From NCBI RefSeq assembly GCF_054482525.1, contig NZ_CM137006.1: a DNA stretch of 64,000 nt; one strand, given 5' to 3'. A program made the translations under genes and the position numbers. A model generated the notes under the pieces. It did no database searches and was not told the DNA's origin. It saw only the letters and a list, made by a program, of their open reading frames with translations. This document shows positions 2 to 57,120 of the stretch, piece after piece. Each line of letters opens with the position of its first letter. Within the stretch, counting starts at the first letter, position 1.

Positions 2-1351
2 GTTGGCATTCTGGGGGCACTGAAAGCCGCAGGTGGACTGTGGTTTGGCTGGAGTGGCGAAACAGGGAATGAGGATCAGCCGCTAAAAAAGGTGAAAAAG
101 GGTAACATTACGTGGGCCTCTTTTAACCTCAGCGAACAGGACCTTGACGAATACTACAACCAATTCTCCAATGCCGTTCTCTGGCCCGCTTTTCATTATC
201 GGCTCGATCTGGTGCAATTTCAGCGTCCTGCCTGGGACGGCTATCTACGCGTAAATGCGTTGCTGGCAGATAAATTACTGCCGCTGTTGCAAGACGATGA
301 CATTATCTGGATCCACGATTATCACCTGTTGCCCTTTGCGCATGAATTACGCAAACGTGGGGTGAATAATCGCATTGGTTTCTTTTTGCATATTCCTTTC
401 CCGACACCGGAAATCTTCAACGCGCTGCCGACATATGACACCTTGCTTGAACAGCTTTGTGATTATGATTTGCTGGGTTTCCAGACAGAAAACGATCGTC
501 TGGCGTTCCTGGATTGCCTTTCTAACCTGACCCGCGTCACGACGCGTAGCGCAAAAAGCCATACGGCGTGGGGCAAAGCGTTTCGAACGGAAGTTTACCC
601 GATCGGCATTGAACCGAAAGAAATAGCGAAACAGGCTGCCGGACCACTGCCGCCAAAACTGGCGCAACTTAAAGCGGAACTGAAAAACGTACAAAATATC
701 TTTTCTGTCGAACGGCTGGATTATTCCAAAGGTTTGCCGGAGCGTTTTCTCGCCTATGAAGCGTTGCTGGAAAAATATCCGCAGCATCATGGTAAAATTC
801 GTTATACCCAGATTGCACCAACGTCGCGTGGTGATGTGCAAGCCTATCAGGATATTCGTCATCAGCTCGAAAATGAAGCTGGACGAATTAATGGTAAATA
901 CGGGCAATTAGGCTGGACGCCGCTTTATTATTTGAATCAGCATTTTGACCGTAAATTACTGATGAAAATATTCCGCTACTCTGACGTGGGCTTAGTGACG
1001 CCACTGCGTGACGGGATGAACCTGGTAGCAAAAGAGTATGTTGCCGCTCAGGACCCAGCCAACCCGGGCGTTCTTGTTCTTTCGCAATTTGCGGGAGCGG
1101 CAAACGAGTTAACGTCGGCGTTAATTGTTAACCTCTATGATCGTGACGAAGTTGCAGCTGCGCTGGATCGTGCATTGACTATGTCGCTGGCGGAACGTAT
1201 TTCCCGTCATGCAGAAATGCTGGACGTTATCGTGAAAAACGATATTAACCACTGGCAGGAGTGCTTCATTAGCGACCTAAAGCAGATAGTTCCGCGAAGC
1301 GCGGAAAGCCAGCAGCGCGATAAAGTTGCTACCTTTCCTAAGCTTGCGTAA
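2..1351 (+). CDS. otsA: trehalose-6-phosphate synthase OtsA, 5'-truncated by window start
   Basis: ORF 92..1351 translation matches OtsA; reading frame is open back to position 2 (VGILGALKAAGGLWFGWSGETG...), so the gene starts upstream of the window. Confidence 0.93.
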   Translation, partial: VGILGALKAAGGLWFGWSGETGNEDQPLKKVKKGNITWASFNLSEQDLDEYYNQFSNAVLWPAFHYRLDLVQFQRPAWDGYLRVNALLADKLLPLLQDDDIIWIHDYHLLPFAHELRKRGVNNRIGFFLHIPFPTPEIFNALPTYDTLLEQLCDYDLLGFQTENDRLAFLDCLSNLTRVTTRSAKSHTAWGKAFRTEVYPIGIEPKEIAKQAAGPLPPKLAQLKAELKNVQNIFSVERLDYSKGLPERFLAYEALLEKYPQHHGKIRYTQIAPTSRGDVQAYQDIRHQLENEAGRINGKYGQLGWTPLYYLNQHFDRKLLMKIFRYSDVGLVTPLRDGMNLVAKEYVAAQDPANPGVLVLSQFAGAANELTSALIVNLYDRDEVAAALDRALTMSLAERISRHAEMLDVIVKNDINHWQECFISDLKQIVPRSAESQQRDKVATFPKLA

Positions 1352-1786: not shown

Positions 1787-2289
1787 AACCTGTTCCTTAT
1801 TCTGTGAACTTCAGGTGACATTAAAGCTTTACTCCTAATGGAGAATCGACGCAATCCCAACTCAGTCAAACAGGTAAATATTAGTCTGATTATTAGTAAA
1901 TACAATTAATCAATCACTCTTGGTGATCATATGATTTCAACTGTAATTATAAGAAAACAATATACTGATTCCCCATATTAAACAAGTGGTTAATATATGT
2001 AAAACATTTTATTAACATTAAGTTGATTGTTGCCTTTCTTTGTATTTAATTAGTTTGTTGTGCGGTAAGTGTCTGTTAAAAAATAGCTTATCTGGTATTG
2101 CATTAAAGCAATTATTTATAGCAGATGATTATTTACGGTGAGTTATTTTAACTGTGCGCAACATCCCATTTCGATTATTCCTGTTTCATTTTTGCTTGCT
2201 AGCGTCGCGAAAAAACTTTTTAACAGATTGAAATACACCCAAAACAAAAGTATGACTTATACATTTATGTTAAGTAATTGAGCGTTTTG

Positions 2290-2305
2290 TGTGATCTGTA
2301 TCACA
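2290..2305. promoter_or_regulatory. CRP binding site in flhDC regulatory region
   Basis: TGTGATCTGTATCACA matches the CRP consensus TGTGA-N6-TCACA exactly; centred about 72 bp upstream of the inferred flhDC transcription start. Confidence 0.6.
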
Positions 2306-2333
2306 CATTATTGAAAATCGCAGCCCCCCTCCG

Positions 2334-2369
2334 TTGTATGTGCGTGTAGTGACGAGTAAAGTTGCGTCG
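2334..2369 (+). promoter_or_regulatory. putative flhDC sigma70 promoter (-35 TTGTAT, 17-bp spacer, -10 TAAAGT)
   Basis: hexamers read from sequence; places transcription start about 198 nt upstream of the flhD ATG, consistent with the long flhD 5'UTR known from the literature. Confidence 0.4.
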
Positions 2370-2567
2370 ATTTAGGAAAAATCTTAGATAAGTGTAAAGA
2401 ACCCCTTCTATTTGTAAGGACTTATTAAATCCCAAAAAGGGGCTCTGCCTATTGCAGCTTATCGCAACTATTCTAATGCTAATTATTTTTTACCGGGGCT
2501 TCCCGGCGACATCACGGGGTGCGGTGAGACCGCATAAAAATAAAGTTGGTTATTCTGGGTGGGAATA

Positions 2568-2918
2568 ATGCATACCTCCGAGTTGCTGAAACACATTTAT
2601 GACATCAACTTGTCATATTTACTACTTGCACAGCGTCTGATTGTTCAGGACAAAGCGTCCGCTATGTTTCGTCTCGGCATAAATGAAGAAATGGCGACAA
2701 CGTTAGCGGCACTGACTCTTCCGCAAATGGTTAAGCTGGCAGAAACCAATCAACTGGTTTGTCACTTTCGTTTTGACAGCCACCAGACGATTACTCAGTT
2801 GACGCAAGATTCCCGCGTTGACGATCTCCAGCAAATTCATACCGGCATCATGCTCTCAACACGCTTGCTGAATGATGTTAATCAGCCTGAAGAAGCGCTG
2901 CGCAAGAAAAGGGCCTGA
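2568..2918 (+). CDS. flhD: flagellar master regulator FlhD
   Basis: ORF 2559..2918 matches FlhD; ATG at 2568 gives the 116-aa form [22 protein letters not shown]; the in-frame GTG at 2559 is an alternative start. Confidence 0.93.
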
Positions 2919-2920
2919 TC

Positions 2921-3499
2921 ATGAGTGAAAAAAGCATTGTTCAGGAAGCGCGGGATATTCAACTGGCAATGGAATTGATCACCCTTGGCGCTCGTTTGCA
3001 GATGCTGGAAAGCGAAACACAGTTAAGTCGCGGACGCCTGATAAAACTCTATAAAGAACTGCGCGGAAGCCCACCGCCGAAAGGCATGCTGCCATTCTCA
3101 ACCGACTGGTTTATGACCTGGGAACAAAACGTTCATGCTTCGATGTTCTGTAACGCATGGCAGTTTTTACTGAAAACCGGCTTGTGTAATGGCGTCGATG
3201 CGGTGATCAAAGCCTACCGTTTATACCTTGAACAGTGCCCGCAAGCAGAAGAAGGACCGCTGCTGGCATTAACCCGTGCCTGGACATTGGTGCGGTTTGT
3301 TGAAAGTGGATTACTGCAACTTTCCAGCTGCAACTGCTGCGGCGGCAATTTTATTACCCACGCTCACCAGCCTGTTGGCAGCTTTGCCTGCAGCTTATGT
3401 CAGCCGCCATCCCGGGCAGTAAAAAGACGTAAACTTTCCCAGAATCCTGCCGATATTATCCCACAACTGCTGGATGAACAGAGAGTACAGGCTGTTTAA
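2921..3499 (+). CDS. flhC: flagellar master regulator FlhC
   Basis: 192-aa ORF matching FlhC, with Cys-rich C-terminal region; 2 bp after flhD. Confidence 0.95.
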
Positions 3500-3524
3500 C
3501 TTATACGGTGTGGCGCAACATTCC

Positions 3525-3558
3525 AGCAGCGGTAACGACGTACCGCTGCTTTTTTTTG
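3525..3558 (+). terminator. rho-independent terminator after flhC
   Basis: 10-bp perfect stem AGCAGCGGTA/TACCGCTGCT, 6-nt loop, followed by T8. Confidence 0.6.
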
Positions 3559-3625
3559 CCCCAATCGCGCGTTAACGCCTGACGACTGAACATCCTGTCA
3601 TGGTCAACAGTGGAAGGATGATGTC

Positions 3626-4509
3626 GTGCTTATCTTATTAGGTTACCTGGTTGTTCTCGGTACAGTTTTCGGCGGTTATTTGATGACCGGTGGAAGCCTT
3701 GGAGCACTCTATCAACCCGCTGAACTGGTGATTATTGCCGGTGCAGGGATTGGGTCATTTATCGTCGGCAATAATGGCAAAGCGATTAAAGGCACGCTGA
3801 AGGCGCTGCCGTTGCTGTTTCGTCGCTCCAAATACACCAAAGCAATGTATATGGATCTGCTGGCTCTGCTTTATCGGTTGATGGCGAAATCGCGGCAGAT
3901 GGGGATGTTTTCGCTGGAACGTGATATTGAAAATCCCCGTGAGAGCGAGATCTTCGCCAGCTACCCACGCATCCTTGCGGATAGCGTCATGCTTGATTTT
4001 ATCGTCGATTATCTGCGTCTGATTATCAGCGGTCACATGAACACCTTCGAAATCGAAGCCCTGATGGATGAAGAGATTGAGACGCACGAAAGCGAAGCAG
4101 AAGTCCCGGCGAACAGTCTGGCGCTGGTCGGGGACTCACTTCCGGCGTTTGGTATTGTCGCGGCTGTGATGGGGGTCGTTCACGCGTTAGGTTCAGCCGA
4201 TCGTCCTGCCGCCGAGCTGGGGGCGCTTATCGCACATGCGATGGTGGGGACTTTCCTCGGTATTTTATTGGCTTACGGATTTATTTCCCCATTAGCGAGT
4301 GTTTTACGTCAGAAAAGCGCCGAAACCAGCAAAATGATGCAGTGCGTCAAAGTCACACTGCTTTCTAATCTGAACGGTTACGCACCGCCTATCGCCGTTG
4401 AGTTCGGTCGCAAAACGCTCTATTCCAGCGAACGTCCGTCGTTTATTGAACTGGAAGAGCATGTGCGTGCGGTGAAAAATCCGCAACAACAGACGACAAC
4501 CGAGGAAGC

Positions 4510-4513
<4 letters not shown>
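3626..4513 (+). CDS. motA: flagellar stator protein MotA
   Basis: 295-aa ORF, GTG start, multi-pass membrane protein matching MotA. Confidence 0.95.
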
Positions 4514-7405
<2,892 letters not shown>

Positions 7406-8015: not shown

Positions 8016-8042
8016 TAAAGTTTCCCCCCTCCTTGCCGATAA
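8016..8042 (+). promoter_or_regulatory. sigma28 (FliA) class III promoter of the tar-tap-cheRBYZ operon
   Basis: TAAAGTTT - 11 nt - GCCGATAA is an exact match to the sigma28 consensus, about 30 bp upstream of the tar ATG. Confidence 0.8.

Positions 8043-54373: not shown

Positions 54374-57120
<2,747 letters not shown>

What the first reader, a model, noticed from the sequence alone, without database searches (positions are those of the whole stretch)
3500..3625. flhC-motA intergenic region may encode the sigma28-dependent sRNA MotR
A strong terminator (3525..3558) follows flhC, and a 5'UTR-derived sRNA from the motA upstream region has been reported in the literature; I could not pin a sigma28 promoter from sequence alone.
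Basis: established knowledge. Interest (0 to 1): 0.25.

Follow-up and report, generated by a model that had tools for sequence, protein, structure and literature searches.

The report
Known flagellar small RNA MotR, re-mapped
This is the E. coli flhC–motA junction, and it does encode the already published flagellar small RNA MotR, but the RNA starts 37 bases inside flhC (window 3463–3557) rather than filling the intergenic gap, so the finding is correct but ordinary.

Summary
The window is the E. coli flhDC–motAB–cheAW region.

The missing sigma-28 promoter is TAAACTTT-N11-GCCGATAT at 3430–3456, inside the flhC coding sequence. It places the transcription start at A3463.

The curated MG1655 record annotates ncRNA motR (b4828, 95 nt). 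It maps without gaps to window 3463–3557, with 93 of 95 bases identical. Published cloning primers and the "TGC at positions 6–8" description confirm the 5' end.

Across 80 Enterobacterales genomes the promoter sits at a fixed position and its synonymous codon sites are frozen. The terminator is present in 66 distinct Enterobacteriaceae and Erwiniaceae sequences, with compensatory changes in its upper stem. I did not find it in Pectobacterium, Brenneria or Serratia.

The window allele differs from K-12 at MotR nt 40 and 49. U49 lies next to the published seed mutation. It is the ancestral state and introduces a U·U mismatch into the predicted rpsJ duplex.

One speculative extra is an 8-bp complementarity between the 5' end and the terminator (possible anti-terminator). 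Support for it is weak.

Verdict: already known, low interest.

The parts
3430..3456 (+). Sigma-28 (FliA) promoter shared by motR and motAB-cheAW, inside the flhC coding sequence. The -35 element TAAACTTT is at 3430..3437, the 11-nt spacer follows, and the -10 element GCCGATAT is at 3449..3456.
   Evidence: One search finds it with 1 mismatch to TAAA-N15-GCCGATAA (4 hits against 0.33 expected). The tar promoter at 8016..8042 is a perfect match and serves as a positive control. The motif sits at a fixed position in 79/80 Enterobacterales loci by script, and in the 80th by eye. Its synonymous codon sites are frozen (Fisher p = 2e-6). PMC10578931 places the motR promoter within the flhC CDS.
3463..3557 (+). 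MotR small RNA, 95 nt. The transcription start is A3463 and the 3' end is the last U of the terminator tail. It overlaps the last 37 nt of flhC, including the stop codon.
   Evidence: MG1655 ncRNA motR b4828 maps here without gaps at 93/95 identity. The published cloning primer SM001 ACAACTGCTGGATGAACAGAGAGTAC equals window 3463..3488, and 'TGC at positions 6-8' fits. The paper reports a band of about 95 nt that co-immunoprecipitates with Hfq.
3501..3517 (+). Single-stranded target-pairing (seed) region, MotR nt 39-55. The published M1 seed mutation (GUG to CAC) is at nt 46-48, window 3508..3510. The two differences from K-12 lie here: 3502 (T; K-12 has G) and 3511 (T; K-12 has A).
   Evidence: The M1 position comes from primer SM467 and the SNPs. 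RNAduplex recovers the published rpsJ site around +150. The predicted duplex is -22.4 kcal/mol for the K-12 allele and -18.0 kcal/mol for the window allele at the same site.
3525..3557 (+). Intrinsic terminator. The stem is 3525..3534 paired with 3541..3550, the loop is 3535..3540, and the U8 tract runs 3550..3557. It forms the MotR 3' end (the kind of terminator hairpin and U tail that Hfq-binding sRNAs have), lies directly downstream of the flhDC operon (so presumably ends it too), and is a barrier that sigma-28 transcripts must read through to express motA.
   Evidence: It is present in 66 distinct sequences, with 98% of cells paired and 3 upper-stem pairs showing compensatory changes.
2921..3499 (+). 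flhC coding sequence. Its last ~70 nt carry the promoter and the first 37 nt of MotR.
3558..3625 (+). Remainder of the motA 5' UTR, present only in read-through transcripts and not part of MotR. The Shine-Dalgarno sequence GGAAGGA is at 3612..3618, 7 nt before the GTG at 3626.
   Evidence: Read directly from the sequence. The motA start matches MG1655 b1890. The paper describes read-through of the MotR terminator into motAB-cheAW.
3467..3474 (+). Speculative: MotR nt 5-12, CUGCUGGA. This is the exact reverse complement of nt 60-67, UCCAGCAG (3522..3529), which is the 5' flank plus lower left arm of the terminator. It is a candidate anti-terminator strand.
   Evidence: the 8-bp helix is in the MFE of nascent prefixes of 67-80 nt, and 7 of its pairs remain at 85 nt. 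Both strands are invariant or nearly invariant in 66 sequences. Controls are weak.

Best explanation
The locus encodes MotR, the published sigma-28-dependent, Hfq-binding small RNA made from the 5' end of the motAB-cheAW transcript.

How it is made: RNA polymerase carrying FliA (sigma-28) starts at A3463, from the promoter TAAACTTT-N11-GCCGATAT that lies within the last codons of flhC. Most transcripts stop at the intrinsic terminator (3525..3557) and give the 95-nt MotR. The remainder read through to become motAB-cheAW mRNA. The same hairpin lies 26 nt after the flhC stop codon, so it presumably also ends the upstream flhDC operon.

What it does: in E. coli K-12, MotR pairs through its single-stranded middle region (nt ~39-55) with sites inside coding sequences. 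Its targets include rpsJ around +150 and fliC, and FlgJ levels also rise when it is overexpressed. It raises S10 and flagellar gene expression and increases flagella number.

What is shown here: gene order, promoter, transcription-start register, terminator, 93/95 identity to the annotated RNA, and conservation of promoter and terminator across genera.

What is taken from the literature, for K-12 only: sigma-28 dependence, Hfq binding, the targets and the phenotypes.

What is inferred: that this strain's allele (U40, U49) is expressed and acts the same way. Its predicted rpsJ pairing is somewhat weaker.
For: - **Annotation and mapping.** MG1655 annotates ncRNA motR b4828, 95 nt, overlapping flhC by 37 nt. 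The ungapped alignment gives window 3463..3557 with 2 substitutions.
- **5' end.** Published primer SM001 and 'TGC at positions 6-8' fix the same 5' end.
- **Promoter.** The sigma-28 motif is at 3430..3456, with 6 nt between the -10 element and the start; the pattern gives 4 hits against 0.33 expected.
- **Terminator.**
- **Conservation of the promoter.** In 80 loci from 28 named genera plus a few unnamed MAGs (genera counted from the titles), the promoter sits at a fixed distance from the flhC stop. In the promoter and 5'-MotR codons, 11 of 15 amino-acid-conserved codons have fully invariant synonymous sites, against 0 of 21 control codons just upstream (p = 2e-6).
- **Conservation of the terminator.** It is present in 66 distinct sequences; predicted RNA lengths are 88-96 nt, plus one 115-nt sequence that was left out of the alignment. 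98% of cells are paired, with compensatory changes in 3 upper-stem pairs.
- **Target site.** RNAduplex independently recovers the published rpsJ site at about +150.
- **Literature.** PMC10578931 shows sigma-28 dependence, a ~95-nt Hfq-bound band, and detection in Salmonella and EPEC RIL-seq data.
- **Prevalence.** The locus is present in 5376 of 5426 complete E. coli genomes.
Against: - No expression data exist for this strain.
- The window allele differs from the characterised K-12 RNA at nt 40 and nt 49, both within the pairing region. U49 creates a U·U mismatch in the middle of the predicted rpsJ duplex (-18.0 against -22.4 kcal/mol).
- No Rfam 15 family matched this stretch at E ≤ 1, so there is no independent family-model confirmation.
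- The two 5' helices of the single-sequence fold are not supported by comparative data (64-65% of cells paired).
- Even in K-12, compensatory mutations did not restore MotR-rpsJ binding in vitro.
Confidence: 0.93

Rival explanations
1. The element is mainly a cis-acting attenuator of motAB-cheAW rather than a trans-acting sRNA. In this view the 5' end of the sigma-28 transcript (nt 5-12, CUGCUGGA) pairs with UCCAGCAG (nt 60-67) and holds back the lower left arm of the terminator, setting how much transcription reaches motA. The 95-nt RNA is then the terminated by-product. This does not exclude MotR also acting in trans.
For: - There is a perfect 8-bp complement. The helix is in the MFE of nascent prefixes of 67-80 nt, 7 of its pairs remain at 85 nt, and the terminator only takes over at 88 nt or longer.
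- The full-length structure constrained to the anti-terminator is only 3.1 kcal/mol above the MFE.
- The MotR* mutation (UGC 6-8 to GAG), published as 'more abundant, identified by chance', destroys the helix in silico: the 67-nt prefix MFE falls from -19.7 to -10.8 kcal/mol. That would predict more termination.
- U60, C61 and C62 lie outside the terminator stem yet are invariant or nearly invariant, while the 10 nt before them vary freely. The lower 7 stem pairs hardly vary (five are invariant; the two basal ones change in 1-2 sequences), whereas the upper stem covaries.
- Six other terminators in the window have only 3-5 nt of such complementarity.
Against: - With upstream shuffles, 11% reach the same stabilisation, and the left arm pairs upstream in the prefix MFE about as often as observed (433/1000). 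Only the perfect 8-mer is rare, at 1.1%.
- CTGCTGG/CCAGCAG are, from my own knowledge, common E. coli words, which dinucleotide shuffles under-correct for.
- The helix covers only the lower half of the stem and is thermodynamically weaker than the terminator, so strand displacement should be fast.
- Both strands never vary, so there is no covariation evidence either way.
- The 5' segment is equally conserved in Pectobacterium and Brenneria, where I found no such terminator and no UCCAGCAG. Its conservation therefore has some other cause.
- MotR* abundance could simply reflect greater RNA stability.
Confidence: 0.2
2. The hairpin is only the flhDC operon terminator and the sigma-28 start only serves motA. 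In this strain the short RNA is an inert termination product, because its seed differs from K-12.
For: - Both substitutions fall in the pairing region, and one is adjacent to the M1 seed triplet.
- The predicted rpsJ duplex is weakened by 4.4 kcal/mol.
Against: - U49 is the state found in E. albertii, Citrobacter, Salmonella and many other genera. The paper reports MotR bound to Hfq in Salmonella and EPEC RIL-seq data.
- The same rpsJ site remains the best-scoring site for the window allele.
- The promoter, terminator and U8 tail are intact.
Confidence: 0.05

Closest known systems
MotR of E. coli K-12 MG1655 (b4828; Melamed et al. 2023, eLife 12:RP87151, PMC10578931)
   Same: It occupies the same locus (flhC 3' end to motA leader). 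It has the same sigma-28 promoter, the same +1, the same 95-nt length, and the same terminator and U8 tail. 93 of 95 nt are identical.
   Different: There are two substitutions in the single-stranded pairing region: G40U and A49U. U49 interrupts the 12-bp run of the K-12 MotR-rpsJ duplex. The exact window allele is in 566 of 5376 complete E. coli genomes and the exact K-12 allele is in 2897. Comparison with other genera indicates that A49 is the derived state.
The other sigma-28-dependent UTR-derived sRNAs of E. coli: UhpU, FliX and FlgO (PMC10578931)
   Same: They are FliA-dependent, Hfq-binding, derived from mRNA UTRs, and part of flagellar regulon control.
   Different: Those three come from 3' UTRs. 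FliX and FlgO arise by processing, and UhpU has its own promoter inside a coding sequence. MotR is the only one from a 5' UTR, and it is made by premature intrinsic termination of the mRNA's own transcript.
5' UTR-derived sRNAs generated by premature termination in E. coli (class described by Adams et al. 2021, eLife, PMC7815308)
   Same: The architecture is the same: promoter, short leader ending in an intrinsic terminator, then the gene. The terminated leader acts as an sRNA and read-through gives the mRNA.
   Different: I did not check whether that study lists this locus; its main text does not mention motA. Here the promoter and the first 37 nt also lie inside the upstream gene's coding sequence.
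Campylobacter jejuni FlmE/FlmR flagellar sRNAs (PMC11187230)
   Same: They are sRNAs wired into the flagellar sigma-factor hierarchy, with opposing effects on flagellar genes. The eLife paper cites them as analogous.
   Different: They are unrelated in sequence and in genomic context. The resemblance is functional only and was not tested here.

Membership tests
MotR (E. coli sRNA b4828) | Genomic position: starts within the 3' end of flhC and ends upstream of motA, on the same strand as both genes | tested here: met
   flhC is 2921..3499, MotR is 3463..3557 and motA is 3626..4513, all on the + strand.
MotR (E. coli sRNA b4828) | Sequence homology to the annotated 95-nt RNA, with the same ends | tested here: met
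   93/95 nt are identical with no gaps. The 5' 26 nt are identical to cloning primer SM001.
MotR (E. coli sRNA b4828) | Sigma-28 promoter at the correct distance upstream of +1 | tested here: met
   TAAACTTT-N11-GCCGATAT is at 3430..3456, and +1 lies 7 nt after the -10 element. The motif is conserved in 80/80 loci.
MotR (E. coli sRNA b4828) | Rho-independent terminator with a long U tail (the Hfq-binding 3' module) | tested here: met
   A 10-bp stem followed by U8. It is conserved and covaries.
MotR (E. coli sRNA b4828) | Seed region (GGUGAGG in K-12; M1 changes GUG at nt 46-48) able to pair with rpsJ around +150 | tested here: inconclusive
   The GUG triplet is intact, but the adjacent A49 is U here. 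The same rpsJ site is still the best-scoring one, with a U·U mismatch: -18.0 against -22.4 kcal/mol. The rpsJ site itself is identical in 5412/5424 genomes.
MotR (E. coli sRNA b4828) | FliA-dependent expression, Hfq binding and effect on flagella number | not testable with these tools
   Shown only for K-12 in PMC10578931. There are no data for this strain.
Rfam-curated RNA family | Match to a covariance model | tested here: not met
   No Rfam 15 family matches window 2000..5000 at E <= 1. Consistent with this, the PGAP-annotated genomes I looked at list only flhC and motA under the match.
Terminator/anti-terminator transcription attenuator | Mutually exclusive alternative helix that sequesters the terminator's left arm, supported by covariation or by statistics | tested here: inconclusive
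   An 8-bp alternative helix exists. Neither strand ever varies, so there is no covariation signal. Shuffle controls are only marginal: 1.1% for the 8-mer and 11% for the energy.

The most novel reading that the evidence does not exclude
The MotR/motA leader may contain a built-in anti-terminator. Nucleotides 5-12 of the sigma-28 transcript (CUGCUGGA, which are also flhC Leu-Leu-Asp codons) pair with UCCAGCAG at the foot of the terminator.

This 5' strand is translated in flhDC mRNA but untranslated in the sigma-28 transcript. One hairpin could therefore terminate class-1 (flhDC) transcripts efficiently while leaking class-3 transcripts into motAB-cheAW.

This would set the MotR:motA ratio. 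It would also explain why the chance mutant MotR* (nt 6-8) is more abundant, and why the lower stem and the UCC flank are frozen across the 66 distinct sequences (Enterobacteriaceae and Erwiniaceae).
Probability: 0.18. Interest if true: 0.45.

Novelty: already known. Interest (0 to 1): 0.15.

Why it matters
The main value is annotation hygiene. MotR is missing from the PGAP-annotated E. coli genomes I looked at, and no Rfam 15 family matched the region. A scan that recovers it, with correct ends (3463..3557) and a correct promoter (3430..3456), is useful but not a discovery.

Two by-products may interest specialists.

1. The experimentally studied K-12 seed (A49) is a derived allele that lengthens complementarity to rpsJ. 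This window, and most other genera sampled, carry U49. The strength of the MotR–S10 link may therefore differ between lineages.
2. The terminator that defines MotR is confined to Enterobacteriaceae and Erwiniaceae, while the promoter extends to Pectobacteriaceae and Serratia. This suggests the sRNA was added onto an older motA promoter.

Tried and rejected
- **Rfam.** A permissive Rfam 15 scan of 2000..5000 gave no hits, so it neither supports nor contradicts the call.
- **5' helices of the single-sequence fold** (nt 4-24 and 26-50). Only 64-65% of cells are paired across 66 sequences, and there is essentially no compensatory change (2 of 13 pairs, 3 cells in all). I rejected them as conserved structure.
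- **Anti-terminator statistics.** With shuffles of the upstream 57 nt, the left arm pairs upstream in the prefix MFE about as often as observed (433/1000), and 114/1000 reach the same energy gain. Only the perfect 8-mer is unusual, at 11/1000. I kept the idea as a low-probability hypothesis only.
- **Anti-Shine-Dalgarno hairpin in the motA leader** (CAUCCU 3591..3596 against AGGAUG 3615..3620). RNAalifold on 33 Enterobacteriaceae sequences gave no consensus helix. Not claimed.
- **Literature search for a described attenuator or anti-terminator in the motA leader.** Nothing was found in the held library. This is not proof of absence.
- **Other sigma-28-like hits** at 196..222(-) and 56290..56316(+, in the ptrB/exoX region). 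Each has one mismatch and no flagellar context. Not pursued.
- **Small ORFs in 3463..3625.** I saw only a 13-codon ATG frame at 3600, with no Shine-Dalgarno sequence, when reading the sequence. I disregarded it.

Full report
**What is at the coordinates**

The window carries the E. coli flagellar master and motor region on the + strand. flhD ends at 2918, flhC is 2921..3499, motA is 3626..4513 (GTG start), and motB, cheA and cheW follow. A 301-nt query around the site is 100% identical to many complete E. coli chromosomes and is found in 5376 of 5426 genomes. Only flhC and motA are annotated under the match in the PGAP records.

It has a 10-pair stem (6 G-C pairs) at 3525..3550, a 6-nt loop, and T's running to 3557. 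It has the longest stem (10 pairs) of the terminator-like sites in 2000..6000. It also appears in both the MFE and the centroid of the RNA fold.

**Identity**

The curated MG1655 record annotates an ncRNA, motR (b4828), at 1977208..1977302 on the minus strand. It is 95 nt long and overlaps flhC by 37 nt. An ungapped alignment of the MG1655 segment to the window places MotR at window 3463..3557 (+), with two substitutions: 3502 (T against G) and 3511 (T against A), which are MotR nt 40 and 49.

The primary paper (Melamed et al. 2023, PMC10578931) supports these ends:

- It states that MotR comes from the motA 5' UTR, and that its promoter lies within the flhC coding sequence and also serves motAB-cheAW.
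- Its cloning primer SM001 (ACAACTGCTGGATGAACAGAGAGTAC) equals window 3463..3488.
- Its description of MotR* as "TGC at positions 6-8 mutated to GAG" fits only if +1 is A3463.

The interval 3500..3625 contains MotR nt 38-95 and then 68 nt of ordinary motA leader. That leader carries the Shine-Dalgarno sequence GGAAGGA at 3612..3618.

TAAACTTT-N11-GCCGATAT lies at 3430..3456, ending 6 nt before +1. One of the other hits is a perfect consensus at 8016..8042, in front of tar, which serves as a positive control.

The motif lies in the flhC codons Arg-Lys-Leu ... Ala-Asp-Ile. I therefore asked whether its conservation is simply a consequence of protein coding.

- I fetched 80 loci through FlhC, from 28 named genera (counted from the locus titles) plus a few unnamed MAGs.
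- The motif sits at exactly the same distance from the flhC stop in 79 of them by script, and in the 80th by eye.
- Amino-acid-invariant codons just upstream use 2-4 synonymous codons each. None of those 21 codons is fixed.
- In contrast, 11 of the 15 amino-acid-conserved codons in the stretch that spans the −35 and −10 elements, their upstream flank and MotR nt 2-19 are fixed at the nucleotide level (Fisher p = 2e-6).

This shows selection on the DNA or RNA itself, beyond the protein.

**The terminator across species**

The hairpin CCAGCAGCG...CGCUGC followed by 5-8 U's is present in 66 distinct sequences from Enterobacteriaceae and Erwiniaceae. Counting from the conserved start, it predicts RNAs of 88-96 nt, plus one 115-nt sequence that was left out of the alignment.

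On that alignment the terminator helix is 98% paired. Its three upper pairs show compensatory double changes, while its lower seven pairs hardly vary: five are invariant and the two basal ones change in 1-2 sequences. RNAalifold recovers the same helix.

The two 5' helices of the single-sequence fold are not supported, with 64-65% of cells paired.

I found no such terminator in Pectobacterium, Brenneria or Serratia, although these genera keep the promoter and the first ~19 nt. This agrees with the paper's statement that the sRNAs are conserved among some Enterobacteriaceae while the motR promoter is more widely conserved.

**Mechanism**

Shown here:

- a sigma-28-type promoter;
- a start at 3463;
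- a strong intrinsic terminator 95 nt downstream, with a U8 tail, the 3′ architecture the paper notes for known Hfq-binding sRNAs;
- motA immediately beyond it.

Taken from PMC10578931, for K-12 only:

- Expression falls in ΔfliA, and a ~95-nt band co-immunoprecipitates with Hfq.
- Longer bands are attributed to read-through into motAB-cheAW.
- MotR pairs inside coding sequences, including rpsJ at about +150 and fliC. It raises S10 levels.
- The authors speculate that rising S10 then promotes read-through of the motR terminator, which would be a negative feedback loop.

Inferred: that the same holds in this strain.

**The two substitutions**

The M1 seed mutation is GUG to CAC at nt 46-48, deduced from primer SM467. 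The window's U49 is therefore directly adjacent to the seed.

RNAduplex with K-12 MotR recovers the published site without being told where it is. MotR nt 39-55 pair with rpsJ +140..+155 at -22.4 kcal/mol. With U49 the same site remains the best one, but it carries a central U·U mismatch. The energy is -18.7 kcal/mol with G40 and -18.0 kcal/mol for the window allele with U40.

The rpsJ site itself is identical in 5412 of 5424 genomes, so there is no compensating change in the target.

Comparison with other genera shows GGUGUGG in E. albertii, Citrobacter, Salmonella and others. A49 is therefore the derived state and U49 the ancestral one. The exact window allele is in 566 complete E. coli genomes and the exact K-12 allele is in 2897. 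Four further alleles that I sampled vary only at nt 40, 54, 77 (in the loop) and 91 (in the U tract).

**A speculative extra**

MotR nt 5-12 (CUGCUGGA) is the exact reverse complement of nt 60-67 (UCCAGCAG), which is the three bases before the terminator stem plus its lower five left-arm bases.

In favour of an anti-terminator role:

- Folding nascent prefixes puts this 8-bp helix in the MFE from 67 to 80 nt, and 7 of its pairs remain at 85 nt. The terminator wins only at 88 nt or longer.
- The anti-terminator-constrained full-length fold is 3.1 kcal/mol above the MFE.
- The MotR* change abolishes the helix. This would explain why MotR* is more abundant.
- It would also explain why U60, C61, C62 and the lower stem are frozen.

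Against it:

- The controls are weak. The perfect 8-mer occurs in 1.1% of shuffles, but the energy gain is matched in 11%.
- Only six other terminators in the window were available as a natural control. They have 3-5 nt of such complementarity.
- No covariation test is possible, because neither strand varies.
- The 5' segment is just as conserved in genera where I found no such terminator.

I rate this about 0.2 likely. I found no description of it in the held literature.

**Comparison and verdict**

This is MotR, an already published and (in MG1655) already annotated sRNA. No Rfam 15 family matched this stretch, and the PGAP-annotated records I looked at list only flhC and motA.

All structural membership criteria are met. 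The seed criterion is met only with a one-base difference. The expression and function criteria cannot be tested here.

- Novelty: already known.
- Interest: low.

Noticed in passing
window 3511 (MotR nt 49) and 3502 (nt 40): The K-12 MotR seed base A49 appears to be a derived E. coli allele. The window, E. albertii, Citrobacter, Salmonella and many other genera have U49. A49 turns an interrupted duplex with rpsJ +140..155 into a continuous 12-bp run (-22.4 against -18.0/-18.7 kcal/mol). Lineages may therefore differ in how strongly MotR acts on S10.
   Followed up: partly
window 3419..3429 and 3464..3481: Synonymous sites are also frozen outside the core promoter hexamers. This applies to GTAAAAAGACG just upstream of the -35 element (A-rich, possibly UP-element-like) and to CAA CTG CTG GAT GAA CAG (MotR nt 2-19), across 80 loci. 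The latter stretch is conserved even in genera where I found no MotR-type terminator, and I have no explanation for it.
   Followed up: partly
L071, L073-L079, L081 (Serratia, Pectobacterium, Brenneria), downstream of flhC: These genera keep the sigma-28 promoter inside flhC but lack the CCAGCAGCG...U8 terminator. Pectobacterium and Brenneria have a different hairpin (AUCUAUCACUG...CAGUGAUAGAU) with a poor U tract. Serratia has a GC hairpin directly after the stop codon with no U tract. A MotR-like sRNA may be absent or built differently there.
   Followed up: partly
window ~2262..2269: The window lacks the IS1H element that MG1655 carries upstream of flhD. The alignment to MG1655 breaks exactly around the 768-bp insertion. 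Because the element sits in the flhDC upstream region, flhDC expression here may differ from that of the MG1655 reference.
   Followed up: partly
window ~2369..2588, - strand: This region is homologous to the MG1655 antisense RNA AsflhD (b4839), overlapping the flhD start. I mapped it by coordinate transfer only and did not examine it.
   Followed up: no
window 8016..8042 (+): A perfect sigma-28 consensus, TAAAGTTT-N11-GCCGATAA, lies just downstream of cheW. From its position I take it to be the tar-tap-cheRBYZ promoter. I used it as a positive control.
   Followed up: no
window 56290..56316 (+) and 196..222 (-): These are two further one-mismatch matches to the sigma-28 pattern. The first lies in the ptrB/exoX region. 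They have no flagellar context and are probably chance matches or weak intragenic sites.
   Followed up: partly
window 3591..3596 and 3615..3620: CAUCCU in the motA leader is complementary to AGGAUG, which overlaps the motA Shine-Dalgarno sequence. The single-sequence fold pairs them, and some genera show apparently matching changes (GUCCU with AGGAC). However, RNAalifold on 33 sequences gave no consensus helix.
   Followed up: partly
E. coli genome collection: Two of the matches to the flhC-motR segment lie on records classed as plasmids, and 50 of 5426 complete genomes lack the segment altogether.
   Followed up: no
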